Source: a virus (lineage: Duplodnaviria > Caudoviricetes). Taken from it: 61,630 nucleotides of DNA. The notes below the pieces were generated by a model. The model made no database searches and had not been told where the DNA came from. It saw only the letters and a program-made list of their open reading frames with translations. Below, in pieces: positions 193 through 61,630 of the stretch; positions within the stretch are counted from its first letter, which is position 1; the number at the start of each line of letters is the position of its first letter. Location of the stretch: the IMG/VR virus record IMGVR_UViG_3300020186_000025, positions 1 to 61,630 of that record; one strand, 5' to 3'. The position numbers and the translations under genes were made by a program.

Positions 193-232
193 ACCTTGCT
201 TTTACACGATAATAAAAATAAGTCGGCATATT

Positions 233-274: not shown

Positions 275-690
275 AGGTCATGGCGCAAGGGCAAGTAACC
301 TGGCACCAAGGGCCACCGCCCCTAGGGGCGGCACATAGGTCCAACGGCTAGTAGGCCGGGTTCGGGTAAGGCACAAGCTGTATCCGGCAAAGTGTAGCAC
401 GGTGGCTCTTGGTCCGCTTGCACGCCCGGTCTGGTTTCTAGCGTAACACCGCGCCAATGGGCGCTGTCCGCCAGTAAGCCGCCTCGCAAGGGCCGTAGTA
501 ACGCTTACCAGGCCACAGCAAGTCCTGGGTTGGCGCGGGTAGCAATCACCAGCAAAGTCCCTTTCTATCTTCTACCCTCCACCGCCATAGGTCTAGCCTA
601 TGGCGGTCGGTTGCCTGCCCTATAGGGCTTATACTTAAAGCCCCATAGGGCAGGCAATCATGTCTGCCCAACCCTGTAAAGGAAACTATA
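275..690 (+). ncRNA. Highly structured ~400-nt early leader or candidate ncRNA
   Basis: No credible ORF; several stems (CCGCCCCTAGGGGCGG; ACCGCCATAGG/CCTATGGCGGT 581-607; TTGCCTGCCCTAT/ATAGGGCAGGCAA 611-657). Confidence 0.4.
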
Positions 691-692
691 CT

Positions 693-1238
693 ATGGCAAA
701 CTCCAACGCAACGAACCGCTTCGCCACTCGCAAGGGCAAGGTCGCATCCGCCGCCACCGAGGTGGTCTCCGAGATCGTGCCCGAGGTCATCGTGCCCGAG
801 GTCATCGTGCCCGAGGTCATCGTGCCCGAGGTCATCGTGCCCGAGGTCATCGTGCCCGAGGTCATCCCGCCGATGGCGGGTCCGTCGGCCGCCGAAGCCG
901 AAGCTGCACTGTTCCAGCAACGCCAGGCTCTGACCATCAAGGCATGTCGTGGCTTCACCCAGAAGGCCAAGCCTCAGCGCAAGATGTTGCGCCGGATCGC
1001 CAAGATGGGCGTCCACCCCGGAATGGGTCTGGGGATCAAGCGGTGGCACCTCTACCGGGTCGGCATGACCATGCAGGAGGCCAAGACCACGCCGGGCCTG
1101 TGCTACCTGGACCTGACCTTCTGGGAGAAGAACAAGCTGATCGTGATGCGCGACTGCACCGACGAGGAATACGCCGCCGAGCTCTCGTCCTGGGAGGCGT
1201 CCAAGCCCAAGGAAGTCGCGGTGGTCGCCGCCGCATAG
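693..1238 (+). CDS. First early protein with IVPEV x6 repeat; putative DNA-binding domain paralogous to 27141..27929
   Basis: RBS AAAGGAAA before ATG 693; KRW..Y..GMT...D..F motif shared with the 27.1-27.9 kb protein. Confidence 0.8.
   Translation: MANSNATNRFATRKGKVASAATEVVSEIVPEVIVPEVIVPEVIVPEVIVPEVIVPEVIPPMAGPSAAEAEAALFQQRQALTIKACRGFTQKAKPQRKMLRRIAKMGVHPGMGLGIKRWHLYRVGMTMQEAKTTPGLCYLDLTFWEKNKLIVMRDCTDEEYAAELSSWEASKPKEVAVVAAA
774..866 (+). repeat. 15-bp tandem repeat ATCGTGCCCGAGGTC x6 (IVPEV)
   Basis: Six exact in-frame copies. Confidence 0.95.
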
Positions 1239-1246
1239 CACCGAAG

Positions 1247-1322
1247 GGACCGGGCAATGCCCGGTCCCACTCTCCCTTGTTATGCCGTCAATGGTGACGG
1301 CATTATTTAGGAGAAGAAGATG
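1247..1322 (+). repeat. Intergenic double-hairpin plus RBS cassette, copy 1
   Basis: GGACCGGG..CCCGGTCC, ATGCCGTCA-ATGG-TGACGGCAT, then TTTAGGAGAA..ATG. Confidence 0.9.
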
Positions 1323-1586
1323 AGTCATTATGACATCAACTATGCCAATCTTGCGCCGGACGCGAAGCGCACCCAGGCAATCCAGGATATCAAGAACCAC
1401 CTCGGCGTCAACAAATATGATGAGCTGACGGAAGTCATCCACCAGAACTACCAGTTGCCTCTCAGCTTGGATGACTTCCGCATGGCAGTTGCCATGTCGG
1501 GCATCCAGGGCTATCCTGTCCTCGCATGGCATGAGGTCCTGTGGCCAGGTGAGGAAGGCGAATCGGCCAGGGCGGGCGCGGCCTGA
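1320..1586 (+). CDS. Early hypothetical protein
   Basis: AGGAG RBS inside the cassette; 88 aa ORF. Confidence 0.8.
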   Translation: MSHYDINYANLAPDAKRTQAIQDIKNHLGVNKYDELTEVIHQNYQLPLSLDDFRMAVAMSGIQGYPVLAWHEVLWPGEEGESARAGAA

Positions 1587-1592
1587 GCCTGC

Positions 1593-1667
1593 GGACCGGG
1601 TGAAAGCCCGGTCCTTCTCCCTTGTTATGCCGTCAATGGTGACGGCATTATTTAGGAGAAGAAGATG
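1593..1667 (+). repeat. Intergenic double-hairpin plus RBS cassette, copy 2
   Basis: Near-identical to copies 1 and 3. Confidence 0.9.
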
Positions 1668-1868
1668 GAAGCCAATATCCCTGACTGGAAGAACGACGAA
1701 ACGGTCAAGGTGGTGTATGCACCTGATGGGACCGTGGTCATCGTGATCGGGATATGCCAGTGTCAAGGCGAAGGAGAAGAAATTCGGATTGTGCTGCCGT
1801 ATAGCAACACCATGACGGAAGAAGCCATCGGGCTGTTCGTCGCGGCTGCCGATGTTTTCGCCGAGTAG
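1665..1868 (+). CDS. Early acidic hypothetical protein
   Basis: AGGAG RBS; 67 aa. Confidence 0.75.
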   Translation: MEANIPDWKNDETVKVVYAPDGTVVIVIGICQCQGEGEEIRIVLPYSNTMTEEAIGLFVAAADVFAE

Positions 1869-1880
1869 GTAAGAGGAATT

Positions 1881-1955
1881 GGACCGGGTGAAAGCCCGGT
1901 CCTTCTCCCTTGTAATGCCGCCAATGGTGACGGCATTATTTAGGAGAATGAAATG
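1881..1955 (+). repeat. Intergenic double-hairpin plus RBS cassette, copy 3
   Basis: Near-identical to copy 2 with a few substitutions. Confidence 0.9.
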
Positions 1956-2258
1956 ATCATCGGTAAATACCCTGGAATCAAATTGGTGTCGTTGCTCATC
2001 GCTTACGACAACAACAGCATCCCGGAAGGTTCCACCGAGGAACAATGGCTGCTTTCGCTGGATCCTGTCTTTGAGGTTGATGCTGATGCTGACGATCTGG
2101 CAATGCTGGATCAGTGGTGTCAAACCCTCACCAACGAGGAAGCAGAAACCTTGGCGGCCGGCGAATATGACGATATGATGGATATCGTTGCCTTGTCGCC
2201 GAAACCGGAATTCTGCAATCTTCTCTTCAACAGCGTGTTTGAGTGTAGGCAAGAATAG
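1953..2258 (+). CDS. Early, highly acidic hypothetical protein (possible DNA mimic or anti-defence protein)
   Basis: AGGAG RBS; D/E-rich 101 aa. Confidence 0.75.
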   Translation: MIIGKYPGIKLVSLLIAYDNNSIPEGSTEEQWLLSLDPVFEVDADADDLAMLDQWCQTLTNEEAETLAAGEYDDMMDIVALSPKPEFCNLLFNSVFECRQE

Positions 2259-2270
2259 ACTCTGAATCAT

Positions 2271-4920: not shown

Positions 4921-5390
4921 CAGTCATGTCCGATTCTGTGATGTTGAAAATTGACAGCATGATCGATTGCCTCGAGTATGGGTGCAATCCGAAGGATGCT
5001 GTAGAGACCATCTTGTTTGACAACGAAATCGCCAGGAGCGCCGTTGTCCCAGTGATCTGCCTCATCCTGAAGGATGGTCACTCCGCTGTCGTCACCCTCC
5101 CATTGCTGATCACATTCATGGAGGAAATCAATGGCTTCTCCGTGCATCTCCATGGACAGATTGGTCTGCTCGATGTTCGTCGGCAGATTGATTCCGATCA
5201 TGAAACCGACCATCTTCCACTGACCCTCGACCTCTTCGTGGATATGGCAGTAATCCACGTTGAGGAGGCTGATCGAGTTGGTGACGAACCACTCGGCCAC
5301 GGTGGCCTGAAACCAACCTTCATTGGAGTAGACCGCTCCGGCCAAATAGCCGTCCATCAGCGCCCAGGAGAACCTGAAATTAATCGCCAT
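4920..5390 (-). CDS. Hypothetical acidic protein
   Basis: GAGGAGG RBS before ATG 5390 (the ORF-track upstream extension overlaps the preceding gene). Confidence 0.65.
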   Translation of the reverse strand: MAINFRFSWALMDGYLAGAVYSNEGWFQATVAEWFVTNSISLLNVDYCHIHEEVEGQWKMVGFMIGINLPTNIEQTNLSMEMHGEAIDFLHECDQQWEGDDSGVTILQDEADHWDNGAPGDFVVKQDGLYSILRIAPILEAIDHAVNFQHHRIGHD

Positions 5391-13290: not shown

Positions 13291-13511
13291 CTCATTCTCC
13301 TTTGTTTACGTTACTTAGCATAGCATAGCAGCGGTCAGGGGCATAGGGTAAAGGTTCAGGTGCTATCGGAGCGCCTCGGAGCGGGGGCAGGGCAGGGCTT
13401 ACGCCCTACAGCTAAGGGGTAGGGTAGGGCAGGGTATGGCTTGCGCCATAGCGCCATCTGATGGTCGCAGTTTACCCACGTTCTTGCTCCAATCATCACA
13501 AGGATCATCCA

Positions 13512-21627: not shown

Positions 21628-22129
21628 TGATTATCTCCTTCATGAATTTATAGGCTCGCACAGTCATCGCTTCTTTGGCTTCCTTCGAAAACCAGAGTTC
21701 AACTCGGCGTTGCATCTTTTTCATGTTGCGATTTCCAAGGCTCTCTTGATCCAAGATCCAGAGATAGAATTCACATATGTCGAGGCTACCGAGCCAACGC
21801 TGGTCTTCTCTCGAGAGCGTTTCCCAGAAATCTGTTCCTTTAAGAATCCTGTCCGATGCGTCGCTATATGCTTTCTTGTCAAGGACAACGAAAGCTGGAC
21901 GAGGTGTGTCGCCCAGAAGACGTTCTGGAAGATCATGGGCAATGATAGCCCAAAGGAGAGCGGCAGGAGCATCTGGATGAAGAACTCTCAGAAGACACAA
22001 CATGCCGAAAGAGTGTTGACCGACGTCATACTCACCGATGATCTTCTGCGCGTGGACGCGGCGAACCGCCGCGCCCTCTCGTGCAAATTTCACCCGAGCA
22101 ACGTCCCCTTTGAGGACGTAATCCATCAT
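21572..22129 (-). CDS. HD-domain 5'-deoxynucleotidase-like phosphohydrolase
   Basis: V.R.H......V..HS, HDLPE...GD.P.P. Confidence 0.8.
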   Translation of the reverse strand: MMDYVLKGDVARVKFAREGAAVRRVHAQKIIGEYDVGQHSFGMLCLLRVLHPDAPAALLWAIIAHDLPERLLGDTPRPAFVVLDKKAYSDASDRILKGTDFWETLSREDQRWLGSLDICEFYLWILDQESLGNRNMKKMQRRVELWFSKEAKEAMTVRAYKFMKEIINGTSSNPDYWDPINELGE

Positions 22130-23193
22130 GCCCGACGATCCAGCCATTCGATGCAGGCTTTCCGCCAATCCAACGCGGCACAACCGCGAAGGTGTTTCTT
22201 CGCTTCTTCGACCCGCTGACGTTTCGAGCCCTCGTCTGTCTTCCAGGCGAACCATGCCTGCCAGATGGGACACACGACCTTGCGGAAGAACTTGTCCTGA
22301 AAGCCGGTAGCAGGGCCGACGTCCATGAACATTTGCAATTCGCGAATCCAAGCACCAATTTCGCTGTTCACCATCTGGAACGGTTCAACCGGATCTTGCC
22401 CTTTGATCTGAATGTAGGGATTGTCGAAAGGAAGAGGATCGCGGTCGGTGAACCCTGCCAGTTCACGAACAGGGTCCAACGTCTTCAGATAGGAATGAAA
22501 GTTGTTGGAAATCTGCCAGTAGCGACCGACGGGAACTCCGATCCATGCCGCCATGAACTCTTGGAGCATGGAGAAGTGGACAGCATTCGCGCCATAGGTT
22601 CCCCAGACCATGTCGTTGGAACGGTTCGTGACCGACATGTCCAATGACCCGTGGACGCTGATCGAAAACATGATCGTCGTGTTACAGGGAATGTCTTTCC
22701 CCTGACGACCGAGGTCATCTTCGGCCGACCACATGCTCACAACGGCGCGACGTTCATCGGGGTTTTCCCGAAGCATTCCCGCAACGCATTCCAGCTGATT
22801 GAACGGGACATAGGCTTCGCCATGAGGGTTCTGGTCATTATCAGTGAATTGCTGTCTCACAAAATGATTCACCCACCGATAACCGTAGGCTCCGTGGAAC
22901 GTTTCACCATCATCACTGAACTGGCTGATGTTGGAAGAAAACTGGCTGATCCAAGCGACGTCATTGCGACCAGCGATCATCCACAAGCCTTCCATGAAGT
23001 GGAAGAAAGGATTGCAGTCACGCTCAGGATGGAACATGACCCGCTCAAGAGGTTTCAGGTAGAGCGTGGTCACAGGACCGTCGATCAGTTTGACGTCGCC
23101 AGCGCGGGACTGACGATCGAATCCTTCCTTAAGGATCATCGCAACTCCCTTGGGCAACGCTTCGTGAACGTTTCTTGCTTCGATAACGTGCAT
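22126..23193 (-). CDS. Thymidylate-synthase-fold dUMP hydroxymethylase
   Basis: YG.R, RRAV, DIPCN, RSND..WG.YGAN (Asn indicates dUMP specificity; Asp is expected for dCMP), NFH.Y; C-terminal extension. Confidence 0.85.
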   Translation of the reverse strand: MHVIEARNVHEALPKGVAMILKEGFDRQSRAGDVKLIDGPVTTLYLKPLERVMFHPERDCNPFFHFMEGLWMIAGRNDVAWISQFSSNISQFSDDGETFHGAYGYRWVNHFVRQQFTDNDQNPHGEAYVPFNQLECVAGMLRENPDERRAVVSMWSAEDDLGRQGKDIPCNTTIMFSISVHGSLDMSVTNRSNDMVWGTYGANAVHFSMLQEFMAAWIGVPVGRYWQISNNFHSYLKTLDPVRELAGFTDRDPLPFDNPYIQIKGQDPVEPFQMVNSEIGAWIRELQMFMDVGPATGFQDKFFRKVVCPIWQAWFAWKTDEGSKRQRVEEAKKHLRGCAALDWRKACIEWLDRRA

Positions 23194-23202
23194 CGTATTT
23201 CC

Positions 23203-24468
23203 TCACAAACCGAAATGATTGAACATGATTTCCTCGGACTTTTTCTCGAGGGCAGGGACCTCTTCGTAAGGCAGAGGTTGCTCACCGATATCGTCGGTAG
23301 CGATATCGATAATTCGTTTGGCGATAACGTCAGCGTCGAAACACTGAACGAGTTCGCGGACTTCTTGACGCATACTGCTCACATCTGTAGAATCAGAACT
23401 CGCGTGATGCACCATCTCTGCGTAGGTCAGATCGTCTGCATCCATCGGGATGGACACATAATGAACATCTGGCAGGAACAAAGAGTTTCCAATGCCGAGA
23501 GGACGACCGACAGGGATAGCACCATTGATCGCAGCCTCGACGAAGACACGACCATAGAACCCGCCGCGAGGACCAAGACGAGTCGACCAAGAAGGATCGA
23601 CAAGAACCCGCGCCGATTGCAGAAGAAGGTCGACCTGATCACGCTCGATGTAATCGTGATGGACCATGCCGTTGTTTTCGGCCGCTTCCCAGATACGCTC
23701 GCCATCTGCATGAAAATACTTGTCTTTGCATTTGTTTGCAGAAGTCATATACTGATATTCGATACCCTTTCCGAAGATATCCCTGAACTCCATGTCTTCC
23801 TTCGGCGGCATATGACGGACCGCACGGATCAGGTCATCGACGTGCTTGAGACCTTTGAAAGTCTGGAGGCTGACGAAACCTTTGCGACGATCAGCCCAAG
23901 AAGGGACTTCCCGGTTGACATCGCGGAACGGATTGAGGACATGGAACCTCGGTGTCCTGATGAACGAGGAGCCGCCGATCGCCGAATGGTGGACACACAG
24001 AACAGCATGAAGCCTGTCCTGAATTTCCAGGACATATGGATAGCGATCGCAGGCACCACCGTCGTGAACGAAGGCCATCTGGACAGGGTGCTTGAGATCG
24101 TAAAGATCGCGCCATTCCCAGTTGCCTTCGTTCTCAGCATTGGTCGATGGAACCGGAATCGTCCAGAGGATGATGTCATATTCTTCCAGCCACTTCTTCG
24201 CTTGGGCCAGCATCTTCCCGCCCTGATAGGGAACCTTCTTCGCTTTGGTGAAGACCCAACCGATTTTCTGGTTATAGAGAAGTCCGGACTCAGACCTCGA
24301 GAAGTCCCCTGTCCGAGGATTTCCATCTTTCTGGTCTTTGTCGCTGTAGACAAGTTGAAGCAGATCGACATCGTGGCCTTGCCTTTTGAGGCCATAGATC
24401 AGGTCCTCAGTGTGATTGATGATCCCACCGAGGTCCATGATCTTGTAAAGGGCGACAGCGATTTTCAT
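23203..24468 (-). CDS. GT-B fold (GT4-like) glycosyltransferase
   Basis: GGI..H...L...L...GHDV; K.LK.VD.LI.A; VDPSW...YGRVFVEA...GA.PV. Confidence 0.8.
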   Translation of the reverse strand: MKIAVALYKIMDLGGIINHTEDLIYGLKRQGHDVDLLQLVYSDKDQKDGNPRTGDFSRSESGLLYNQKIGWVFTKAKKVPYQGGKMLAQAKKWLEEYDIILWTIPVPSTNAENEGNWEWRDLYDLKHPVQMAFVHDGGACDRYPYVLEIQDRLHAVLCVHHSAIGGSSFIRTPRFHVLNPFRDVNREVPSWADRRKGFVSLQTFKGLKHVDDLIRAVRHMPPKEDMEFRDIFGKGIEYQYMTSANKCKDKYFHADGERIWEAAENNGMVHHDYIERDQVDLLLQSARVLVDPSWSTRLGPRGGFYGRVFVEAAINGAIPVGRPLGIGNSLFLPDVHYVSIPMDADDLTYAEMVHHASSDSTDVSSMRQEVRELVQCFDADVIAKRIIDIATDDIGEQPLPYEEVPALEKKSEEIMFNHFGL

Positions 24469-25469
24469 GCTTTGACTTCCCATGAGCGAAGAACAGGCGC
24501 TGTCAGCGGTCCCTTCTTCAAGGTTTCAGCGATCAGGACCAAGTCTGCTTCACTCGGTTCTGGGAGTTCCTCTTTACCAAGGTGATCCGGCAAAATGCCT
24601 GGACGCATTGACAAAGTGTCACAACCATCACAGGCACCGAAGTCACGCTGTCCATGATAAAGTTTTCGACGAAGAGCATACATTTCCTCGGAGTGCCAAA
24701 TTTCATCAAGACCTTGTTCATGAATAGATCCAAGAGGAAAGACTCCTCTCCAATCATTGCAGCAGGTTGCTACTTGTCCATTCCACCGAACATTGAATTC
24801 TCTGAAAGGTTTCGCACACCTTCTTCCCTCAGCTTTATCGTTTTTGGGAGCCCCCGATCCGGCATGATTGCTGAGTTTGCTGTGAGTGCCACTGGTGCTG
24901 ACATCGATTGGCCTGATCCAGATAAGCCGCTTCTTCGTATTGCGCTTATGAGGATTGCCGACACCCCCACAAGAAGGATAATCGTAAAACGTAACGCTGC
25001 CATCAAACAATTTGTCGCCGGTTTCGAGAAAACCACAACCTTGCTCTTGCTTGATTTTCTCCAGGATCTTCGGCACCAGCTTAATCGTCTGGTATTCGTC
25101 CAAGCCCAGAGTAGAAAGGCCAGCGCCGAACATTTCTTGGACGGTCTTTGTGGAAGTATCGCCAATGATTCCTCCACCATTGCTTTCGAGCAAGATGTAG
25201 GCTTTCGGCAGGTGCCGTCGGAAGATTGCGATCAATTCCAGGAAGTCAGGATTCATCGTCGGCTCGCCGTGCATAGCGATTTCAACTCTACTATTCCAAC
25301 CAAGAGAAGCCATTTGCTTTGAAACAGATTCCGCAGTTTCGCGAGTCATCAGCTTATAGTTATTTTCTTTTCCCCTGATAGCGTTCAGACCACAAAATCC
25401 ACAACGAAGATTGCAGCCCTCTGCAAATTCTATGTGAATGACGTATGGATTTCCTTGGCGATAGTTCAT
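24465..25469 (-). CDS. Radical SAM enzyme with SPASM/twitch domain
   Basis: CNLRCGFC, GEP, SNG; C.KPF....W.G.V..CC.D....LG.I....L.EIW...C..C. Confidence 0.9.
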   Translation of the reverse strand: MNYRQGNPYVIHIEFAEGCNLRCGFCGLNAIRGKENNYKLMTRETAESVSKQMASLGWNSRVEIAMHGEPTMNPDFLELIAIFRRHLPKAYILLESNGGGIIGDTSTKTVQEMFGAGLSTLGLDEYQTIKLVPKILEKIKQEQGCGFLETGDKLFDGSVTFYDYPSCGGVGNPHKRNTKKRLIWIRPIDVSTSGTHSKLSNHAGSGAPKNDKAEGRRCAKPFREFNVRWNGQVATCCNDWRGVFPLGSIHEQGLDEIWHSEEMYALRRKLYHGQRDFGACDGCDTLSMRPGILPDHLGKEELPEPSEADLVLIAETLKKGPLTAPVLRSWEVKA

Positions 25470-26185
25470 GATTCTTTCCTTCTGTATCCTGCGATGGTTT
25501 GCCAAAGACCGCTGTTGTCTAAAGTTGGGGCGATGAATGATTCCCAACCGTTGTCAAGAAAATAAGCATCCAAATGTCTTGCGTTCTCAAGTCTCCCAAC
25601 TGTAAGATGTATTTCAAAAACTACCTCTTTCAATTTCGGAAAATCAGCGATCGCTTCATAGATTTCGTATTCCCCTCCCTCACAATCAATTTTCGCTACA
25701 TCTGGATTCGTTTCTTCCAAAACCTTTTGAATAGAAACAGCCGATACTGTTGAGATTGTTCTTCCTCTTGTCTTTCTGGTTGTATAATTCCCAGAGTTTT
25801 TCCCAGAAGTAGAAATATAGAAATCAACAAACGGTTGTTCACCGTTAATCACAGCCGATTGACAAAGAACAATTTCTTCTTCAGGGCAATTCAATTGAAA
25901 CATTTCACAGTTGAAGGGCTCAGGCTCGAAAGCATAAACTTTCTTCGCATTATTGTCCAAAGCCCATCTTGAAAATAAACCGATATTTCCACCGATGTCA
26001 AGAACCACATTATCTTTTACAGATAATTTTCCGTATGAACGATAAATCTCTTTTGCGATATAGAGATCATAAGTGTCTTTTCTGCAAAAGATTGGAGTTG
26101 AAAATCCTTTTACTGATTTGACTTCAATTTCTCTTTCTTCGACAGTGCCATTCACTATAATTTTGGCGGTTTTTGATTCAGTCAT
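25466..26185 (-). CDS. FkbM-family SAM-dependent methyltransferase
   Basis: VLDIGGNIG, AFEP.P.N, KIDCEG.E, E.H. Confidence 0.88.
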   Translation of the reverse strand: MTESKTAKIIVNGTVEEREIEVKSVKGFSTPIFCRKDTYDLYIAKEIYRSYGKLSVKDNVVLDIGGNIGLFSRWALDNNAKKVYAFEPEPFNCEMFQLNCPEEEIVLCQSAVINGEQPFVDFYISTSGKNSGNYTTRKTRGRTISTVSAVSIQKVLEETNPDVAKIDCEGGEYEIYEAIADFPKLKEVVFEIHLTVGRLENARHLDAYFLDNGWESFIAPTLDNSGLWQTIAGYRRKES

Positions 26186-26232
26186 AGTTGACTCCTATCT
26201 CATGTTTGATCTTTATTTCAGAAAGCGTTTGG

Positions 26233-27141
26233 TTATCTTCCTTTATACCGACTTCTTGGTCTTCCTTGTCCCAGACGAGTGCGCTCATACTTGTCGAACT
26301 CACAAAGCTGGAATTGAATGTCTGTCGGGAATAGCTTTCCATATTCCTTAGGCCAGAACTCTCCTTGGGCTTCGTAAAGTTGCATTATGATCTCCATCGG
26401 CTTGCCCTTGCCAATGTTGACCGTCGTTGGAGAGTCATGCCCAAGAAGGCGAGCAGCACCACGAACACCACCGGGACCGACGGGAGTCCAGCGATCATAG
26501 TCTTCGGGATAGGTGAACGTGCGGTTGTCCACATGTTGGATTTCACCACCCCAGAAACTTGTCATCATTGTGTCCAGGAGAACTTCTTTGGTCATGAAAC
26601 CAGAGCCGCCGAAACCTTTGATCGTGGACATTGCACCAGCCAAATCTCGCCAGCTTCTTGTCTTTTGAACTTGCTCCAAAAGAGCAGGCACAGCGTCATA
26701 AAGATCGGAAAGAAAGTGACGGCAAACGACTTGCGGCTTGGGAGCACTCATACCCTGATTCGTGACGACATAAGCCCCTGTGAAAACACGCAGACCATCC
26801 GCGAGGCGATCTGTTGCACAGTCTTCGATCTCCAACAAATCGAAGCTTTCGTAGTCATACCAACCGACTGCCTGAGCGAATTCGAATGTTCCGAAGTATC
26901 GATAGACTGCACAGTTGATCAAGATGGAACGAGGGTCATCATCGAAATGATCGTAGTAGAACGTCGAGCGCAACATATCCGATGTCCAATCGTGATGTCT
27001 ACGAACGTTCGTGAATTTGTATTCTTGGAGGATGGGATCATCAGTCCAAGGGCGAGGCTGGCCAGCCTCCTTGCGGAGACGGACCAGTTCCCGCTTCTTC
27101 ATGTAGTCGAAGAAGCGGGGAGTTGCGATCGGTAGGTCCAT
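26233..27141 (-). CDS. aGPT-Pplase clade 1 / 5-hmdU DNA kinase helical-domain family protein
   Basis: R..G..PWT.DPIL..YKFTNV.R..D, FTGAY, G.G..F...E, GPG..RG, DIQ..LCEFDKY.R. Confidence 0.85.
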   Translation of the reverse strand: MDLPIATPRFFDYMKKRELVRLRKEAGQPRPWTDDPILQEYKFTNVRRHHDWTSDMLRSTFYYDHFDDDPRSILINCAVYRYFGTFEFAQAVGWYDYESFDLLEIEDCATDRLADGLRVFTGAYVVTNQGMSAPKPQVVCRHFLSDLYDAVPALLEQVQKTRSWRDLAGAMSTIKGFGGSGFMTKEVLLDTMMTSFWGGEIQHVDNRTFTYPEDYDRWTPVGPGGVRGAARLLGHDSPTTVNIGKGKPMEIIMQLYEAQGEFWPKEYGKLFPTDIQFQLCEFDKYERTRLGQGRPRSRYKGR

Positions 27142-27929: not shown

Positions 27930-28031
27930 TGTGTTTCCTTTCATTGGTCAATACCTCGGCCTTGCCTTAGCCCTTTACTTATGGCATGTCGGCAAGGCCG
28001 GAGCAACAGTTATTTTTCACGCGCCTTGGAA

Positions 28032-43585: not shown

Positions 43586-44217
43586 ATGCGAATCTCCATG
43601 ATGCTCAAATCAGGAACTTGTCCAGAGTCGAAGAGTTCCACATTCACGAGAATTTCATCTTGATCGAAACGAACTGGCACATCGAATTCGAAACCGGCAG
43701 TCACTGACAAAGTGTTCCCTGGAGCAACGAGGAACGTCACCAAGCCGGTTGTCGTGTCAACAGTGAAGTCAGTCGTTATTGTCTTCGCAACCCCATTGAT
43801 CGCAACTGTCAGACTCCCAACCACTGGTTTCTTGATATCTCTGACATAAGGGCTTGAAGATGAGGAGTATTGTTTCGTCAACTGAAAGACAGTTTCTACA
43901 CCATCACCAGTTCCAATTTGTTGATCAGCATTAGTGATTGTAGATGTTGGTGAACCAGATTTGAAGTCTGACCAATCTTTCCAACGAAATCCGTGAAGTC
44001 TACCACGACGCGCTTCGAAGAATTCAATGGCTTCATAAAGATGATCCATATGACGAAGGCCGAGTCCAGCATTGTATGAACGTCGAGAATTAGCCCAAAG
44101 AGAGTTGCGGAACTCAAATCCTGAACGAAGGGTCACTACGTCTGTGAGACGACGAGGGCCACCGCTTGAGCCACGACTGATGTCGCTTGGAAAAAGAACT
44201 TCATGAAAAGCCATCAC
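43582..44217 (-). CDS. Distal tail protein (GTA g12-like, DUF2460)
   Basis: FHEV.FP..IS.GS.GGP, FFEARRG.L.GFRWKDW.D, AGFEFDVPVRFD. Confidence 0.92.
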   Translation of the reverse strand: MMAFHEVLFPSDISRGSSGGPRRLTDVVTLRSGFEFRNSLWANSRRSYNAGLGLRHMDHLYEAIEFFEARRGRLHGFRWKDWSDFKSGSPTSTITNADQQIGTGDGVETVFQLTKQYSSSSSPYVRDIKKPVVGSLTVAINGVAKTITTDFTVDTTTGLVTFLVAPGNTLSVTAGFEFDVPVRFDQDEILVNVELFDSGQVPDLSIMEIRI

Positions 44218-52395: not shown

Positions 52396-53284
52396 GAATG
52401 ACTCCCCCTCTTCCACCATTTGTCAAGAACGGATATAGAAGACGATCAGCCGCAGGGAACCTCGAGATGATAATATTCGAAGCATACTTATATTCTTCTT
52501 CGATAGGTCCAACCTTCTCGCGACGAGAAGTCACAGGTCCACCAAAATCATCGAAAGAAGGATCTTTGAGCAAGACATCGTTCAGGACACGAACAGAATA
52601 CTCAGAGGTCGCTTGTTTGATTCTCTCAGGAATTCCAACGATGGCATTTCCACGATCATCATAGACGTATTGTCTGGGCCAGGACAATGGCTGAATCCCA
52701 CCATCAAGACCCCCGACAAAAGGTGAAGTTGTGATGTTCGGAGCGGCCTCGGAGAGCACCGTGTAAGCCCCGCTTGCACCGGGGGCCAATGCCACCAGCG
52801 CCACCACACCTGCCGCCGCCGTGGCCGTGCCGTGGCGGCTTGCCACCGTGCCAAGGCCATAGGTAACACCAGCCGCCGCAGGCAAAGCCATCACCCCATC
52901 GGTGAAGTTGCTCGCATTCAATGTTATTGTTGCACCAATGAGAATCTCATCTGGTTCACCAGAGAGAGAAGTCACAAAGATGTAAGTCTGATCGCCCAAG
53001 GTGAGAGAATCGTTATTGGCTGGGAGACCAGTGAAAGAAACAGAACCCTCAGCAAAAGTGACCTCGAAAGATGACAGAGGAACTCCCCTGAACTTATGAC
53101 TGAACCTTTTGTCCAGATAATCTGTCGCTGCGATAATTGCAGCTTCCTGAACTGAAGCAGAAGAAGTTGACCATGAGTTCTCTGTAACGCGATTTCGTGA
53201 AGTAAGATAGCTGGTCACAAAAGAAACTGGGACGTATCCATTCGCCCCGTAGACACCGATCCCTGTTTCTACGATAAGAGACAT
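52388..53284 (-). CDS. Head-tail adaptor (DnaT-like family) with internal insertion domain
   Basis: VE.G.G...AN.Y, A.DY.D, Q.L.WPR, EKVGPIE.EY. Confidence 0.8.
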   Translation of the reverse strand: MSLIVETGIGVYGANGYVPVSFVTSYLTSRNRVTENSWSTSSASVQEAAIIAATDYLDKRFSHKFRGVPLSSFEVTFAEGSVSFTGLPANNDSLTLGDQTYIFVTSLSGEPDEILIGATITLNASNFTDGVMALPAAAGVTYGLGTVASRHGTATAAAGVVALVALAPGASGAYTVLSEAAPNITTSPFVGGLDGGIQPLSWPRQYVYDDRGNAIVGIPERIKQATSEYSVRVLNDVLLKDPSFDDFGGPVTSRREKVGPIEEEYKYASNIIISRFPAADRLLYPFLTNGGRGGVIRD

Positions 53285-56771: not shown

Positions 56772-58253
56772 CTAGTTGGTTTGGTCTTGTTGAGACGGTT
56801 TTCCAGTCTTGTTCTTTTGGTCACCGTTGCGATCACCAGAAGGGTCACGTTTCAAGACTGTCTTCTCCTCCTTTTCGATTGCACCCAATTCCTCTTCGAA
56901 GGTCAACTTCGTGAGTCCTCGGTCGAATGCTATCTGGTGGAGGCTGCGGGCGGAAATCGGGAAACCGAGGTTCCTGGCAGTCTGCTGTTCGACCATCGTC
57001 TGGCCGGTCAGTTCAGTGTTGCTGAATTCTTTGTTGGGCTCAATAGAAACTTCTGATGGATTCAAGCCCATCCATTCGGCGCAAATCTTGAGTATCGCTT
57101 CAAGACCTTTCGCTCCCGTATCAGCGACCTGATTGAGATCGGCTGTGCGAGCAGCAATACGAATACCAAGACTCTTGCCGCTTTCACGTTCACGACTGGT
57201 GCTATCAAGTGATTGAGCACCCATGGAGCCAGCATGTCCACGATCGTCTTTCAGTGCTTCTCGCTGTTCCGAAAGACCATTGGCAGTGACTCCAATGAAC
57301 TTGGCATCGCCTTGAGGATTGCTGATATCGATTCTTGCACCGGCACCAGTCCGAAGAGTCTCATCCTCTTCTTGTGTGCCACCAATCACGACTAGTGTCT
57401 CTTGACCTTGCATGAACAGGTTCTGACGATAGTCTGCCTCACCACGATAGATCGTCATGCAGAGTTCACCGAGGTCCAGCAAGGGTGGCTCATCAGGATC
57501 AGATACAAGATCACACGAGTTGACAATAACGAAAGGAATCTTCTCCAGGGTCTTCCCGAGAAGAGATGGAGCCTTCAACTGATCTGGGTTGAACTCGACA
57601 TCTTTGGTAAGAAAGACACCGACTTTGTATGCAGCAGTAGACTCGTTTTCATCGATATTGCCGATGACCAGCACACGATACTTCTCATCGATCTCCCATG
57701 TGAACGAGGTCAACCCTCTCTCATATTCGGATTCATCGAGAACAACGAGATTCATCACCTGCGGAACAAGTCCCTCAACTGTTCCGTCATCCCAATTGAT
57801 GATACGCTCTGTTGTATAGGTGGCGATGTAGGGAGTGTTCCCACCAGAAGTCGGCAGATCAGCAAGGAGACCGATACGACCAGAAATCAGCTGTTCAGTA
57901 TTGATGCGACGGAGCAGCTGAGGAAGGTCTTCTCCTTTTGACGAACGAATTTCCTCCATACCTTTCGGCAGGATGATCTTCGCTGGCTGGGAATGAAGCA
58001 TCCCAACGGCTGTCTGGACAGCCTCGCGGACGAAGTTCGGGAAACGAGATCTCTTCAGATAAGAATCGTAAGCCTTGTATCCAGCTTGTTGAGTGTTGGA
58101 CATTCCATCAGCAATTTGTCCGCTCGTCGCTGGAAGATAGGCTGTTCTCTTCGACTTGACTTGACGCTGACCACGATAAGCATCGCTCATCAAAATCCAG
58201 TCTTCAAGCATCGCAACATATTGAGGGTGCTTCGAAGAAATGTCCCGTGACAT
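56772..58253 (-). CDS. Portal protein (DUF4055 type)
   Basis: HP.Y....W..D.Y.G...VK, YLP, Y..Y..R, IINW, IPFV, PPLLDL, ADY. Confidence 0.9.
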   Translation of the reverse strand: MSRDISSKHPQYVAMLEDWILMSDAYRGQRQVKSKRTAYLPATSGQIADGMSNTQQAGYKAYDSYLKRSRFPNFVREAVQTAVGMLHSQPAKIILPKGMEEIRSSKGEDLPQLLRRINTEQLISGRIGLLADLPTSGGNTPYIATYTTERIINWDDGTVEGLVPQVMNLVVLDESEYERGLTSFTWEIDEKYRVLVIGNIDENESTAAYKVGVFLTKDVEFNPDQLKAPSLLGKTLEKIPFVIVNSCDLVSDPDEPPLLDLGELCMTIYRGEADYRQNLFMQGQETLVVIGGTQEEDETLRTGAGARIDISNPQGDAKFIGVTANGLSEQREALKDDRGHAGSMGAQSLDSTSRERESGKSLGIRIAARTADLNQVADTGAKGLEAILKICAEWMGLNPSEVSIEPNKEFSNTELTGQTMVEQQTARNLGFPISARSLHQIAFDRGLTKLTFEEELGAIEKEEKTVLKRDPSGDRNGDQKNKTGKPSQQDQTN

Positions 58254-58376
58254 ACGAGTCTCCATGGAATCGACGCAGTAGATTCCCCGCGTTTGAAATG
58301 CAGCATAGCCCCATCCGAGTAATCTGGCAAGGACTTTTATTCTCGTTACTTATGGAGGAATCTACTGAGTCGATTC

Positions 58377-59903
58377 CTAGTGCATTCCAGTCGTGGTCCC
58401 TTGACCAACCTTCATTCCAACGAAACGGACACGATATCTCGTTTCATCAGCAATGTGATCTTCTGTCCTTGTATCCACGTCATCAGGATCATCTTCATCT
58501 CTCGGAAGAACAGGAACAGTTCGTATCCATTGCTCACAGTTGTCAAAGATGAAGAGTCCTGGTTTCTCTCTTGGGCCATAGATAGGTTTCTCTTCAGCAT
58601 TCAAGCCCAAAATGGTGGGATGAGCGTTCCTGATCATCTGACGCATCTGCACCCAACCTGTATGACGCGATCCCGGACGCTTGTCAGCTTCTCCCCAATA
58701 GATTCCTTTGTAACGGACTCCATCTTCGAGTCTAACCTTGGTCTTCATGTCAACAGCAATGCAGTTTCCGTTCTCGGCAGCAAAAATCTGCGAGTCTGCA
58801 ACTCCACCCTTCACGCGGCAATACGATCCATCGCCACGAATACGATATCCCCACTTGATCTCTCTCTCGACCATCCCACGAGCGATGTCAGTCGCCAGCA
58901 TCTGCTTCCCTTCGTTGGACTTCCCTGTCCAACCATACCATTCGTGAATACGAAACAGATCTCCACGAACCGTAGATCGCCACTGACCGTTCTTCAACAG
59001 CACATCTTCTCCATTGCTCCTTGCCCACCAGCCAACAGAAAATGGACGTGATGAACCCCAGTCGAAACTCCGATCCATGGACCATCGATCTGGGATAACG
59101 AACGGACGAAGGACATTGAAAGCCGGGTCCCAGACATCGTCGAACATTCCACCAGCGACAATGTCCCACGACCCTTCGAGCCATGCTTTCCGCTCAGCAT
59201 CGTTGCGAGCAGCCGCTGCAATCTTGTTCACATAGTCAGGATCCTCTTTGAGAAGAACCAGGTTCTCTTCCAGACGGGAGAAGATTGACAAACGAGGTGG
59301 CTCAGGAATACCGCGTTCGTCCTTCAACTCCTTACGAACTTTCATGTTCATTGTAGAAGGCAGAAATCTCATTTTGACCCAGTTGTGACCGGGACCATAT
59401 GGGTTCGTCGTCGCACGAACCATCCGTGGCATACCAGGAGTTGAACTCCGACAGCACGAGAACATTCTCTTGTATCCAGTGTCGTCAGGCCAGTTGCAAA
59501 GTTCTTCCCAACCGATCCAGGGATATTCGTGACCGTGATAGTTCCAATAGTCGTCGTCCCGCTTGAATTGACGCAACAGAAGTTCTTCGCCAGAGAGCCA
59601 GACCCACTTATGCTCGCTTCCATTGAACTTGGCTCCAGGCCAAATCTGCGGAAACCACTTCTTTGTCTTGGTAATCACATCTGAAAGCTGTTTGTATGTC
59701 TGCCGGAACAAGACGCCCTTCCAACCGGCTCCAAATCCCTTACCGACGTGCATCCCGAACGACATCAGAAGGGAATCTGTCTTGCCACCGCCACGCGATC
59801 CTTGAAAGAGGACCTCAAAGATCGGAGTAGAAGAAAGAAACGCTTCCTGCGACCCTTTCTGGGGCTTCCAAATCACATTTTCTGGATATTGATCTAGAGG
59901 CAT
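58377..59903 (-). CDS. terL: Terminase large subunit
   Basis: GSRGGGKT Walker A, GWEEL Walker B, TTNPYG.GH.WVK, DWGS..P, EDH.ADE.RY. Confidence 0.93.
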   Translation of the reverse strand: MPLDQYPENVIWKPQKGSQEAFLSSTPIFEVLFQGSRGGGKTDSLLMSFGMHVGKGFGAGWKGVLFRQTYKQLSDVITKTKKWFPQIWPGAKFNGSEHKWVWLSGEELLLRQFKRDDDYWNYHGHEYPWIGWEELCNWPDDTGYKRMFSCCRSSTPGMPRMVRATTNPYGPGHNWVKMRFLPSTMNMKVRKELKDERGIPEPPRLSIFSRLEENLVLLKEDPDYVNKIAAAARNDAERKAWLEGSWDIVAGGMFDDVWDPAFNVLRPFVIPDRWSMDRSFDWGSSRPFSVGWWARSNGEDVLLKNGQWRSTVRGDLFRIHEWYGWTGKSNEGKQMLATDIARGMVEREIKWGYRIRGDGSYCRVKGGVADSQIFAAENGNCIAVDMKTKVRLEDGVRYKGIYWGEADKRPGSRHTGWVQMRQMIRNAHPTILGLNAEEKPIYGPREKPGLFIFDNCEQWIRTVPVLPRDEDDPDDVDTRTEDHIADETRYRVRFVGMKVGQGTTTGMH

Positions 59904-60843: not shown

Positions 60844-61034
60844 GAATAGGGATTAGGAATAGGGATTAGGAATAGGGATTAGGAATAGGGATTAGGAATA
60901 GGGATTAGGAATAGGGATTAGGAATAGGGATTAGGAATAGGGATTAGGAATAGGGATTAGGAATAGGGATTAGGAATAGGGATTAGGAATAGGGATTAGG
61001 AATAGGGATTAGGAATAGGGATTAGGAATAGGGA
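60844..61034. repeat. 13-bp tandem repeat GAATAGGGATTAG x~14.7
   Basis: Exact period of 13. Confidence 0.97.
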
Positions 61035-61069
61035 GCCACTGGCCACTGGCACTGGCAGGCTGGCAGGCA

Positions 61070-61109
61070 GAAAATAGTTGTTTACATATGCACAAGTTAG
61101 GTGTAGGCT
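61070..61109 (+). promoter_or_regulatory. Early promoter TTTACA-N17-TAGGCT
   Basis: GAAAATAGTTGTTTACAT-TGCA-AAG shared with the promoter at 233-274. Confidence 0.75.
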
Positions 61110-61146
61110 AACGGTAGGGCAATACCGCCCACATAGGTTAATAAAC

Positions 61147-61446
61147 ATGCCACGCACCCCACCCGGGCCCATACACAACTGGCGCAGCACCTACACTGCT
61201 ATGCACATAGCACACCTGCAACAACAACGGGTTGTAGAAATGCTTGTGCAGGCGCTGTGCTGTGCAGTTGCTAACCGCCAGCACGCCACCACAATAGCAG
61301 CGCTAGAAAATTCTATTGCAGCGGCAGCCACTGTGGAAAATAGCATGTTGCTGGCATTGCCTGGCATTGCCCAGTTGTTGCCTACGCTGCAAACAATGCC
61401 CGGGCTAGGTGTGGCCAGCGGCAGTGCAATAGGCAATAGGCAATAG
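61147..61446 (+). CDS. Hypothetical early protein nearly devoid of TC/GA dinucleotides
   Basis: Follows a promoter; 99 aa with no Asp, no Phe, and Glu only as GAA. Confidence 0.5.
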   Translation: MPRTPPGPIHNWRSTYTAMHIAHLQQQRVVEMLVQALCCAVANRQHATTIAALENSIAAAATVENSMLLALPGIAQLLPTLQTMPGLGVASGSAIGNRQ

Positions 61447-61497
61447 GCAATAGGCAATAGGCCACACCTGGGCTAGCCCAGGTGTGGCCTATTGCCT
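61426..61497. repeat. GCAATAG x5 running into a 46-bp perfect palindrome (61452-61497)
   Basis: AGGCAATAGGCCACACCTGGGCT|AGCCCAGGTGTGGCCTATTGCCT. Confidence 0.95.
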
Positions 61498-61513
61498 TGC
61501 CATGCTAGCCCAG

Positions 61514-61630
61514 GTCTGTCAGTGTCTGTCAGTGTCTGTCGGCGTCAGTGTCTGTCGGCGTCAGTGTCTGTCGGCGTCAGTGTCTGTCGGCGTCAGTGTC
61601 TGTCGGCGTCAGTGTCTGTCGGCGTCAGTG
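61514..61630. repeat. 16-bp tandem repeat GTCAGTGTCTGTCGGC x6+, truncated by contig end
   Basis: Six full copies from 61528 plus partial copies. Confidence 0.97.

What the first reader, a model, noticed from the sequence alone, without database searches (positions are those of the whole stretch)
61035..61514. TC/GA dinucleotide desert at the genome end: sequence footprint of a TpC-specific modification
Hand count: 4 GA (all in GAAA) and 1 TC in 480 nt, versus roughly 60 expected at 1/16 each. The core genes are visibly full of GATC, TCGA and GAAGA. The block holds an early promoter and an ORF whose amino-acid usage appears bent to avoid GA/TC (no Asp or Phe, Ser mostly AGY). Positions 1-207 also have none. 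Established: restriction profiling of hmdU-hypermodified phages implicated TG/TC contexts as targets. Inference: the bulky base is installed at 5'-TC-3', and DNA that host machinery must read first is kept unmodified by sequence design.
Basis: partly seen in the sequence, partly recalled or inferred. Interest (0 to 1): 0.85.

Follow-up and report, generated by a model that had tools for sequence, protein, structure and literature searches.

The report
Phage gene island lacking TC/GA dinucleotides
A group of bacterial viruses that chemically decorate their own DNA keep one small gene cassette almost free of the two-letter step TC/GA, so strictly that its protein has almost no acidic amino acids; this probably keeps that DNA undecorated.

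Summary
Window 61035-61514 holds 4 GA and 1 TC against 59.2 +/- 6.1 in shuffles, and 1-207 holds none. The window is a metagenomic contig whose ends fall in tandem repeats, and a 90%-identical relative runs straight through the junction, so "genome end" is not shown.

GA/TC-free runs of 80-721 nt occur in 28 of 45 related loci with TerL identity >=63% and in 0 of 35 with <=62%. In the 90%-identical relative the island sequence is unrelated to the window's.

In more distant relatives the island holds a conserved ~125-aa protein family. Its 83 members total 1 Asp and 19 Glu in 10,919 residues. With amino acids fixed, 25-31 GA/TC are expected per ORF and 0-6 are seen.

All 9 clade genomes carry a 5-hmdU DNA kinase. 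In each, 6-bp palindromes with TC/GA are not avoided (O/E 0.86-0.99) and those without are (0.41-0.75). TG gives no protection. Phage M6 shows the reverse.

Best reading: thymidine hypermodification in this clade falls on T of 5'-TC-3', and the island is modification-free by sequence design. Neither the modification context nor the island's purpose (early expression) is shown.

The parts
60844..61034 (.). 13-mer tandem array (GAATAGGGATTAG, 14.7 perfect copies) with 2 GA per unit; border of the island on the TerL side
   Evidence: (TRF)
61035..61514 (.). GA/TC-free island A, the finding itself: 4 GA + 1 TC in 480 nt
   Evidence: recovered as its own contig in 4 of 4 runs
61071..61096 (+). Repeated motif P1 (contains TTTACA; possible GA-less -35 element), duplicated at 235-260
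   Evidence: 92% identity over 26 nt; 15-nt core exact twice, third hit has 3 mismatches; not called by the sigma-70 scan
61147..61446 (+). Island ORF, 99 aa, orphan; 0 Asp, 3 Glu; all 4 residual GA/TC inside it are at codon position 1 (3 GAA, 1 TCT)
   Evidence: no Pfam or PHROG family
61426..61462 (.). 7-mer array (GCAATAG x5.3) inside the island
61452..61497 (.). Perfect 46-nt inverted repeat after the ORF (hairpin; possible terminator or binding site; no T-run)
   Evidence: self-match on the minus strand at 100%; terminator scan found none
61528..61630 (.). 16-mer tandem array (GTCAGTGTCTGTCGGC x6.4; TRF call 61528-61630, with partial repeat copies and the first TC from 61515), TC-rich, running into the contig end
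1..207 (.). GA/TC-free island B: degenerate CCTGCC/AGCTA arrays at the contig start; contiguous with the right end in relative L007
235..260 (+). Repeated motif P2 (copy of P1) pointing into the plus-strand genes
660..2258 (+). Small plus-strand gene block (660-1238, 1320-1586, 1665-1868, 1953-2258) downstream of P2; the overlapping minus ORF 546-2270 is spurious
   Evidence: codon log-odds; homologue of the first gene in L007 7091-7570
22126..27141 (-). Thymidine hypermodification cluster: thymidylate-synthase homologue 22126-23193, unknown 23203-24483, radical SAM/SPASM 24465-25547, FkbM-type methyltransferase 25466-26185, 5-hmdU DNA kinase 26233-27141
58377..59903 (-). Large terminase, the anchor used to find relatives
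52755..52890 (-). Mini-desert (136 nt, zero GA/TC) inside the Ad1-like adaptor gene; same position in G001, G002, L007 and L020
21063..21205 (-). Mini-desert (143 nt, zero GA/TC) inside ORF 20998-21627 (DUF3310 / nucleotide-kinase-like)
13380..13456 (.). Intergenic GA/TC-free stretch rich in GGCAGGG/GGGTAGGG runs

Best explanation
The block is one copy of a conserved class of GA/TC-free islands (about 0.15-1.1 kb) in a clade of YuA-related siphophages that encode a 5-hmdU-kinase thymidine hypermodification pathway. Each island is a small, rapidly exchanged expression cassette. It has a sigma-70-like promoter candidate whose -35 avoids GA, a ribosome-binding site that in most cases avoids GGAG, one or two small ORFs and a hairpin, and in the window's subgroup it is framed by tandem arrays. 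Proposed mechanism: in this clade the bulky base is made post-replicatively only on T in 5'-TC-3', about 33.5% of all T by the counts. DNA with no TC on either strand therefore ends up as ordinary thymine DNA. The island would be the one part of the virion chromosome that unadapted host proteins can bind and transcribe as normal DNA, probably at once on entry. The price is no protection from restriction. SHOWN: the depletion; its conservation despite sequence turnover; that it acts on DNA beyond codon and amino-acid choice; its co-occurrence with the kinase; the TC-specific sparing of restriction-type palindromes. INFERRED: that the modified base sits at TC; that the island is unmodified; that the purpose is early or host-dependent reading.
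For: (1) 5 GA/TC against 59.2 +/- 6.1. (2) Runs >=80 nt occur in 28 of 45 loci with TerL identity >=63% and in 0 of 35 with <=62%. Longest run per whole genome: 158-693 nt in 9 clade genomes, 40-51 in 3 kinase-bearing distant relatives, 58-60 in 2 kinase-less relatives, 51 in M6. (3) L007 is ~90% identical to the window in the flanks but has no >=100-nt homology in the ~1.3 kb between them, and that stretch is still desert. (4) Pooled over 27 islands (11,497 nt), GA/TC O/E is 0.02 (32/1344) while all other steps are 0.62-1.58 and TG/CA is 1.51. The island definition selects for low GA/TC, so this figure is descriptive. (5) Synonymous resampling: 25-31 expected, 0-6 seen in 5 ORFs. 13 family CDS total 4,914 nt with 11 GA/TC at 26-86% amino-acid identity. 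83 homologues hold 1 Asp + 19 Glu in 10,919 residues and 72 of 83 have none; genome usage is 6.4% Asp + 6.3% Glu. (6) Both GA and TC are missing, which points to duplex DNA and not RNA. (7) The kinase is present in 9 of 9 clade genomes. (8) 6-bp palindromes against a Markov expectation: with TC/GA 0.86-0.99 per genome, without 0.41-0.75; 16 sites median 0.94 against 48 sites median 0.58, Mann-Whitney p=8.6e-7; the 39 most avoided sites are all TC-free; TG-only 0.59 against neither 0.58. Non-palindromic hexamers are 1.00 in both classes. M6 shows TC-only 0.04, TG-only 0.75; kinase-less phages 0.83-0.92 against 0.91. (9) TC-free palindromes inside islands are avoided at 0.56, as expected for unprotected DNA. 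(10) Dinucleotide-level context of thymine hypermodification has published support: PMC6449724, PMC13458397, PMC8989533. (11) Two SNPs between samples create no GA/TC.
Against: No chemical or kinetic data exist for any clade member; no cultured representative was found and only assembled contigs were available, so no read depth or error profile. The kinase-desert link is confounded by phylogeny, since all desert genomes form one clade. 17 of 45 loci at >=63% TerL identity show no run >=80 nt in the DNA fetched; at least six of these (L008, L010, L013, L039, L040, L062) have under 600 nt upstream of TerL, but L019 has 8.8 kb and L011 6.1 kb upstream. At 4 bp the palindrome contrast is absent: TC-only 0.90 against neither 0.85, with TCGA 0.76. 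Published contexts for other phages favour TG, or TG and TC together; a TC-only enzyme is not documented. The other early genes (polymerase, kinase and so on) are full of TC, so modification cannot block transcription outright and the advantage of a naked island is unclear. Island genes differ between close relatives and the window's ORF is an orphan, which argues against an essential conserved function. Mini-deserts inside structural genes need another explanation. The promoter is not called by the scanner.
Confidence: 0.55

Rival explanations
1. Same premise (TC-context modification, island unmodified) but a different purpose. The naked DNA would be needed for packaging (terminase or cos recognition), replication initiation or recombination, i.e. 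a DNA site function, and not for early transcription; the ORFs would be passengers.
For: The island usually lies upstream of TerL. The window's subgroup frames it with tandem arrays and a perfect 46-nt palindrome. Assemblies often break there. Conserved mini-deserts inside genes and the enriched GGGCAGGG motif (22 in 5.9 kb of tracts against 23 in 566 kb outside) look more like protein-binding DNA than like genes. In PAE1, cos lies just upstream of TerS-TerL.
Against: Islands of 600-1100 nt are far larger than a binding site and are filled by a conserved coding sequence with RBS and hairpin. In several relatives the island is 5-6 kb from TerL (L037, L038, L073, G007). Island sequence is not conserved between 90%-identical genomes, which is unusual for a recognition site. 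The only TerS-like hit in the window is at 2319-3011, not beside TerL.
Confidence: 0.2
2. The island avoids an attacker and not the phage's own modification. A host or phage enzyme acting on TC/GA in duplex or single-stranded DNA (a TC-specific deaminase or nuclease) would select against the step in a region that cannot be protected otherwise.
For: Symmetric loss of TC on both strands. TC-preferring deaminases and nucleases exist (recalled knowledge, no call).
Against: It does not explain why only ~1% of the genome avoids the step while the rest has it in excess (O/E 1.25-1.32), unless the rest is protected by modification, which returns to the main reading. No such enzyme was identified here.
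Confidence: 0.1
3. RNA- or protein-level constraint. The transcript must lack GA and UC (escape from an endoribonuclease), or the protein must lack acidic residues, and the DNA pattern is a by-product.
For: The family proteins are basic, with Ala/Pro/Lys/Thr-rich tails. Residual GA in the window ORF are all Glu codons.
Against: A protein without Asp/Glu still gives 25-31 GA/TC under normal codon use. Non-coding parts and arrays (window 1-207, promoter region, hairpins) are equally free. An RNA constraint would be strand-specific, yet both GA and TC are absent and the window's ORF lies on the opposite strand to L007's.
Confidence: 0.05
4. The relevant modification is 7-deazaguanine inserted at 5'-GA-3' by a DpdA-type transglycosylase, as reported for phage CAjan (title seen in the listing; the GA motif is recalled), and not a thymidine derivative.
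For: The dinucleotide is the same (GA/TC).
Against: No TGT/DpdA (PF01702) and no QueC (PF06508) in the 97%-complete genome, with controls positive in 14 of 14 genomes. A thymidine pathway is present instead.
Confidence: 0.02
5. Chance or low-complexity artefact: the block is built from a few short repeats that happen to lack GA/TC.
For: Short arrays lie inside the block (CCACTGG, GCAATAG), and 1-207 is entirely array.
Against: About 350 nt of the block is unique sequence. Other arrays next to it contain GA or TC. Unique-sequence islands up to 721 nt and a diverged protein family show the same ban.
Confidence: 0.02

Closest known systems
Sequence-context-specific thymidine hypermodification via 5-hmdU DNA kinase (phages M6, ViI, phiW-14, SH-Ab 15599)
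   Same: Same enzyme family (PF18723 kinase, thymidylate-synthase homologue, radical SAM) and post-replicative logic. Only a fraction of T is converted, in a dinucleotide context inferred from restriction resistance.
   Different: Published contexts are TG or TG+TC. Here the sequence footprints point to TC alone. No paper seen describes a region kept free of the target step. M6 has no such region.
Restriction-site (palindrome) avoidance in phage genomes
   Same: Selection removes short DNA words; the genome-wide avoidance of TC-free palindromes here is of that classical kind.
   Different: The island bans a 2-nt step and not a 4-8 nt site, does so locally (~1% of the genome), and the banned word is most likely the phage's own modification target and not a host enzyme's site.
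Morons / accessory promoter-gene-terminator cassettes of tailed phages
   Same: A small self-contained cassette with composition unlike its surroundings, different in close relatives, beside the packaging genes.
   Different: Morons are recognised by foreign base composition. None is known (to my recall) to lack a dinucleotide or to force a protein family to lose Asp and Glu.
First-entering early regions (T7 gene 0.3 region, T5 first-step-transfer DNA with its repeats)
   Same: By analogy only: small genes with host-type promoters near a chromosome end, and repeat arrays nearby.
   Different: Entry order, timing and physical ends are unknown here. T7 and T5 details are recalled, not tested.
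CpG islands of vertebrate genomes
   Same: Works alike in outcome: a promoter-bearing stretch that stays free of the genome-wide base modification.
   Different: CpG islands keep the target dinucleotide and are protected from the enzyme. Here the target dinucleotide itself is eliminated. There is no evolutionary relation.

Membership tests
5-hmdU-kinase thymidine hypermodification system | 5-hmdU DNA kinase (Pfam PF18723 HMUDK_hel) | tested here: met
   window 26233-27141(-), E 2.8e-33, 115.9 bits against cut-off 25; also over cut-off in G001-G011
5-hmdU-kinase thymidine hypermodification system | dUMP hydroxymethylase (thymidylate-synthase homologue) to supply 5-hmdUTP | tested here: inconclusive
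   window 22126-23193(-) matches PF00303 at E 1e-20; a hydroxymethylase cannot be told from a true thymidylate synthase by this hit
5-hmdU-kinase thymidine hypermodification system | Transferase that displaces the phosphate (aGPT-Pplase type) | tested here: inconclusive
   Neighbours 23203-24483 (426 aa) and 27141-27944 (267 aa) have no significant Pfam or PHROG family; radical SAM/SPASM and an FkbM methyltransferase are present
5-hmdU-kinase thymidine hypermodification system | Hypermodified thymidine actually present in virion DNA, in a defined context | not testable with these tools
   Only assembled contigs of public runs were available; the indirect palindrome footprint favours TC
Yuavirus / Mesyanzhinovviridae-like siphophages | Shared structural and replication genes with YuA, M6, PAE1 | tested here: inconclusive
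   TerL 57% identical to YuA/PAE1 and 58% to phage Simon; Dda-like helicase stretches at 71-79% nt identity. Related, but too distant to assign genus or family from these hits.
Moron (accessory expression cassette) | Own promoter and terminator flanking a non-essential gene that varies among relatives | tested here: inconclusive
   Variation among relatives is met. A hairpin is present but no T-run terminator or consensus promoter was called. Promoter candidates were read by eye in the alignment.
DpdA / 7-deazaguanine DNA modification (GA motif) | TGT-family transglycosylase and preQ0 synthesis genes | tested here: not met
   PF01702 and PF06508 absent from G000; controls positive in 14 of 14
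Island-encoded ~125-aa protein family (alignment A1) | Conserved C-terminal domain (R..Y..L..GF..AL..P..H..W..Q, invariant columns) | tested here: not met
   The window's island ORF shows no similarity to it or to L007's ORF. The family is present in 15 of the 28 sequences examined, not in the window.

The most novel reading that the evidence does not exclude
These phages carry an 'epigenetically naked' gene island. Because their own hypermodifying enzymes act on every 5'-TC-3', the only way to keep a cassette as ordinary DNA is to delete that step from both strands. Selection has done so for long enough that a whole protein family has evolved almost without Asp and Glu. The island would hold the genes (takeover or counter-defence) that must be read from the incoming, fully modified chromosome by unadapted host proteins. 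As a corollary, the modification context of uncultured phages (TC here, TG in M6-like phages) can be read from sequence alone, from dinucleotide deserts plus palindrome-avoidance asymmetry.
Probability: 0.4. Interest if true: 0.9.

Novelty: categorically new. Interest (0 to 1): 0.82.

Why it matters
If the reading holds, it gives three things.

First, it is a case where a DNA-level rule (a banned dinucleotide) has reshaped the amino-acid alphabet of a natural protein family. That is a clean natural experiment in protein evolution without acidic residues.

Second, it is evidence that hypermodifying phages need some chemically ordinary DNA. That makes the long-open question of how bulky thymidine adducts affect promoter recognition, transcription and DNA-protein binding in vivo directly testable, by comparing island and recoded island.

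Third, it is a sequence-only way to infer the context specificity of DNA hypermodification in uncultured viruses. Here that is TC against TG in M6-type phages. This is useful for choosing restriction enzymes, interpreting sequencing bias, and finding the specificity determinants of 5-hmdU kinases and transferases as tools.

If the reading fails, an almost absolute, conserved, 2-nt ban over hundreds of bases still needs an explanation.

Tried and rejected
Known families for the island proteins: Pfam and PHROGs gave nothing significant for 5 island ORFs. The AlphaFold model of the family (pLDDT 80.8) had no PDB match (best E 4.1), and in BFVD it matched only one unnamed family member. The protein atlas gave only unnamed viral clusters below 0.9. 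tblastn of the family against 50,697 phage records found nothing, though low-complexity filtering may hide hits.

Rfam (gathering threshold) and tRNA scans of the window found nothing, so the conserved 283-545 leader remains unexplained.

In L034 they found no plus-strand promoter upstream of the island ORF.

The flanking context of the 42 residual TC in islands shows no clear preference, so I dropped the idea of a longer motif such as 'not TTC'. I also dropped the idea that flanking arrays are unusually TC-rich: their density of 2 per 13 nt and 3 per 16 nt is near the genome mean of 1 per 6 nt.

Public runs are kept only as contigs, so the hoped-for depth and error comparison between island and modified DNA was impossible. 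Parts of the stretch without contig cover mean nothing.

Physical ends: analogy with PAE1 fails because the only TerS-like gene in the window is not next to TerL.

4-bp palindromes show no TC contrast.

Literature: one search for modification-free or unmodified regions in hypermodified phages returned 0 papers, and one on Mesyanzhinovviridae with cos and early genes gave nothing relevant in its listing. These are narrow word searches, not proof of absence. Supplementary tables of PMC6449724 (per-enzyme results for M6) were not seen and could bear on TC against TG in M6.

Papers: PMC6449724, outline with abstract and passages. PMC8989533, passages. PMC13458397, passages including part of the abstract. 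PMC12686479, passages (not used in the argument). All other titles were seen in listings only.

Full report
THE OBSERVATION. Window 61035-61514 contains 4 GA and 1 TC. Shuffling the block's own bases 20,000 times gives 59.2 +/- 6.1, never below 39. In the window as a whole GA/TC is the most over-represented symmetric step (O/E 1.32), with one GA or TC every 6.05 nt on average. Positions 1-207 have none. The ban is specific: in the block TG/CA is 1.70, GC 1.80, TA 1.31 and CG 0.39.

WHAT THE RECORD IS. The window is a whole IMG/VR viral contig, classed linear and 97% complete. Nearly all genes are on the minus strand: large terminase 58377-59903, portal 56772-58265, family A polymerase, ribonucleotide reductase, helicases. 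There is a thymidine-hypermodification cluster: thymidylate-synthase homologue, radical SAM/SPASM enzyme, FkbM-type methyltransferase and 5-hmdU DNA kinase. TerL is 57-58% identical to YuA, PAE1 and phage Simon, so this is a distant relative of the M6/YuA group with no close cultured relative.

Both contig ends lie in perfect tandem arrays. Relative L007, ~90% identical in the flanks, runs without a break from the equivalent of window ~888 across the junction to ~60801. The two deserts (61035-61514 and 1-207) are therefore one region interrupted by a TC-rich 16-mer array, and "genome end" means contig end. The physical ends cannot be placed. In PAE1, cos lies 136 nt before TerS-TerL, but here the only TerS-like hit is at 2319-3011.

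ANATOMY IN THE WINDOW. From the TerL side the order is as follows:
- a 13-mer array containing GA (60844-61034);
- the island, made of short CCACTGG-type repeats, a motif repeated at 61071-61096 and 235-260 (92% identity over 26 nt, both on the plus strand), ORF 61147-61446 (+, 99 aa), a GCAATAG array and a perfect 46-nt inverted repeat (61452-61497);
- the TC-rich 16-mer array (TRF call 61528-61630) running to the contig end;
- after the junction, the GA/TC-free CCTGCC-type arrays (1-207) and the second motif copy;
- a ~400-nt leader, then four small plus-strand genes (660-2258).

The long minus ORF 546-2270 is spurious (codon score 0.03; the plus-strand gene has a homologue in L007). The island ORF is an orphan. 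Its length is not beyond chance, because a GA/TC-free sequence cannot contain TGA on either strand (p = 0.05-0.12). All four residual GA/TC inside it sit at codon position 1 (three GAA, one TCT), which is weak support for translation. The consensus scanner calls neither the promoter nor a terminator.

THE FEATURE IS CONSERVED; THE SEQUENCE IS NOT. Of 80 loci fetched with TerL, 28 of the 45 with TerL identity >=63% have a GA/TC-free run of >=80 nt, up to 721 nt. None of the 35 with <=62% identity has one. Of the 17 negatives in the first group, at least six have under 600 nt upstream of TerL, but L019 (8.8 kb upstream) and L011 (6.1 kb) are true negatives for the DNA held.

In whole genomes the longest run is 158-693 nt in nine clade members (G000-G007, G011). 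It is 40-51 nt in three kinase-bearing distant relatives (G008-G010, which I call YuA-like from TerL identity and GC only), 58-60 nt in two kinase-less relatives and 51 nt in M6. L007's island has the same build (arrays, small ORF, ATAGGCC-type array, hairpins) but unrelated sequence, an unrelated ORF and the opposite ORF orientation. Pooled over 27 islands from 22 non-redundant sequences (11,497 nt), GA/TC O/E is 0.02 (32 against 1,344) while all other steps are 0.62-1.58. The island definition itself selects for low GA/TC, so that figure is descriptive. The 42 residual TC (both strands) show no clear flanking preference.

A PROTEIN FAMILY UNDER THE BAN. In more distant clade members the island is unique sequence. 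It holds a promoter candidate, a ~125-aa ORF on the TerL strand, a ~35-aa hydrophobic ORF and a GC-rich hairpin. The ORF family appears in 15 of the 28 sequences examined and aligns over its whole length at 26-86% identity. Thirteen CDS total 4,914 nt with 11 GA/TC. With amino acids fixed and codons redrawn, 25-29 GA/TC are expected per gene (minimum 13-16 in 5,000 draws) against 0 seen in the three family genes tested.

A profile search found 83 proteins, all unnamed and without Pfam. Together they hold 1 Asp and 19 Glu in 10,919 residues, and 72 of 83 have none. Genome usage is 12.7% Asp+Glu. By my reading, ribosome-binding sites in most islands are AAGG/GGGG-type and not GGAG, and -35 candidates are TTGGCT, TTGTTT or TTTACA and not TTGACA. 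This is inspection, not a scored result. The family's fold (pLDDT 80.8) matches nothing solved. Its function is unknown.

WHICH PROCESS READS TC/GA. The loss of a step together with its reverse complement, in coding and non-coding DNA and whichever strand carries the ORF, points to a property of duplex DNA. The genome lacks the deazaguanine pathway, for which a GA motif is reported in CAjan (that motif is recalled): PF01702 and PF06508 are absent with 14 of 14 controls positive. It does carry the thymidine pathway, whose products are reported to form in sequence-specific contexts (PMC8989533). Restriction resistance suggested TG or TC for M6, ViI and phiW-14 (PMC6449724), and mainly TG with less TC for dapT (PMC13458397). 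Because the islands are rich in TG/CA (1.51-1.70), they can be modification-free only if the context here is TC alone.

AN INDEPENDENT FOOTPRINT. If a modification protects sites containing its context, selection against restriction sites should spare those sites. Against a Markov (k-2) expectation, each of the nine clade genomes has 6-bp palindromes containing TC/GA at O/E 0.86-0.99 and those without at 0.41-0.75. Across the clade the 16 TC-containing sites have median 0.94 against 0.58 for the other 48 (Mann-Whitney p = 8.6e-7). The 39 most avoided sites are all TC-free (for example GGGCCC 0.02, GCATGC 0.07), and TG-only sites (0.59) are no better off than sites with neither (0.58).

Non-palindromic hexamers are at 1.00 in both classes. 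The three distant kinase-bearing relatives show the opposite asymmetry: TG sites 0.91 against 0.62, p = 4e-5, and no TC effect. Kinase-less relatives show none. M6 itself has TC-only sites at 0.04 (10 against 242), TG-only at 0.75 and TC+TG at 0.94. This fits the statement in PMC6449724 that the M6 kinase modifies TG. Inside islands, TC-free palindromes are avoided at 0.56, as for unprotected DNA. Against this: 4-bp palindromes show no contrast, hosts differ between the groups, and the test says that TC/GA-containing sites are protected, not which base is modified.

WHAT IT PROBABLY DOES. I read the island as DNA kept unmodified by design. By the counts, T in TC makes up 33.5% of all T on both strands, in the range reported for such phages ("up to half", PMC8989533 abstract). 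Why a naked cassette is useful is inferred. Candidates are immediate reading by host RNA polymerase of an accessory (takeover or counter-defence) gene, or a DNA site for packaging, replication or a binding protein.

The cassette's own promoter-RBS-ORF-hairpin build and its turnover among near-identical phages favour an accessory expression unit. Its usual place near TerL, the arrays, the conserved mini-deserts inside the adaptor gene and a ~1,050-1,140-aa gene (0 of 3,000 resamples reach zero), and the GGGCAGGG motif enriched in tracts favour a DNA-site role for at least some tracts. The rest of the early genes are full of TC, so modification cannot be an absolute block to transcription.

POPULATION DATA. 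The island's unique part is the same ~450-nt contig in four microbial-mat runs, cut off by arrays on both sides. Two SNPs (61065 A>T, 61335 G>A) and array-length changes create no GA/TC. One run may be the source sample, and contigs give no depth comparison.

VERDICT. The TC-modification reading is the best available, supported by gene content and two independent sequence footprints but by no chemistry. "Genome end" and "early promoter" are not shown. I found no description of such islands (a narrow search).

Noticed in passing
window 52755-52890, 21063-21205; G001 5216-5347; G002 50813-50945; G003 41987-42109; G007 11915-12030; G011 44947-45057: GA/TC-free mini-deserts of 110-145 nt inside real genes (Ad1-like adaptor, a ~1,050-1,140-aa protein, a DUF3310/kinase-like ORF). 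They are positionally conserved across divergent relatives and encode Ala/Gly/Thr/Pro-rich segments; 0 of 3,000 synonymous resamples reach zero. Their purpose is unknown.
   Followed up: partly
GA/TC-free tracts of G000-G007 and G011; in the window 13386-13434, 21089-21139, 35302: GGGCAGGG/CCCTGCCC occurs 22 times in 5.9 kb of tracts against 23 times in 566 kb outside, in tracts of 6 of 9 genomes. GGCAGGG occurs 16 times in the window against 5.6 +/- 2.7 expected. It could be a binding site or G-quadruplex-type runs.
   Followed up: partly
window 283-545: The non-coding leader between motif P2 and the first plus-strand gene is conserved at 77% nucleotide identity with the distant relative L009, but matches no Rfam family. 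It could be a structured RNA or a DNA element.
   Followed up: partly
window 23203-27944: The modification cluster differs from M6's as described in PMC8989533. It has an FkbM-type methyltransferase (25466-26185) and two unknown proteins (426 and 267 aa) beside the kinase and the radical SAM/SPASM enzyme. The final base may be an undescribed derivative.
   Followed up: no
window 546-2270 (-) against 660-2258 (+): The longest ORF at the left end (574 aa, minus strand) is spurious. The real genes are four small plus-strand ORFs, the first with a PEVIV-type tandem peptide repeat from the 15-mer array at 774-866.
   Followed up: yes
window 2319-3011 (-): The only terminase-small-subunit-like hit (phrog_4044, E 1e-18) lies about 4 kb from TerL across the junction, not adjacent to it.
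   Followed up: no
phage M6 (DQ163916.1), whole genome: 6-bp palindromes that contain TC/GA but not TG/CA are almost absent: 10 observed against 242 expected. This is an extreme avoidance worth its own look.
   Followed up: no
L025 9518-9622, L034 8655-8756, L041 2615-2716 (approximate, read): A second small ORF (~33-35 aa, hydrophobic, membrane-peptide-like) follows the conserved island gene in several relatives and is also GA/TC-free.
   Followed up: no
window 46711-47044: A 111-nt unit repeated 3.0 times at 95% identity inside the 1,514-aa ORF 44214-48758, probably a repeat in the tape-measure-like protein.
   Followed up: no
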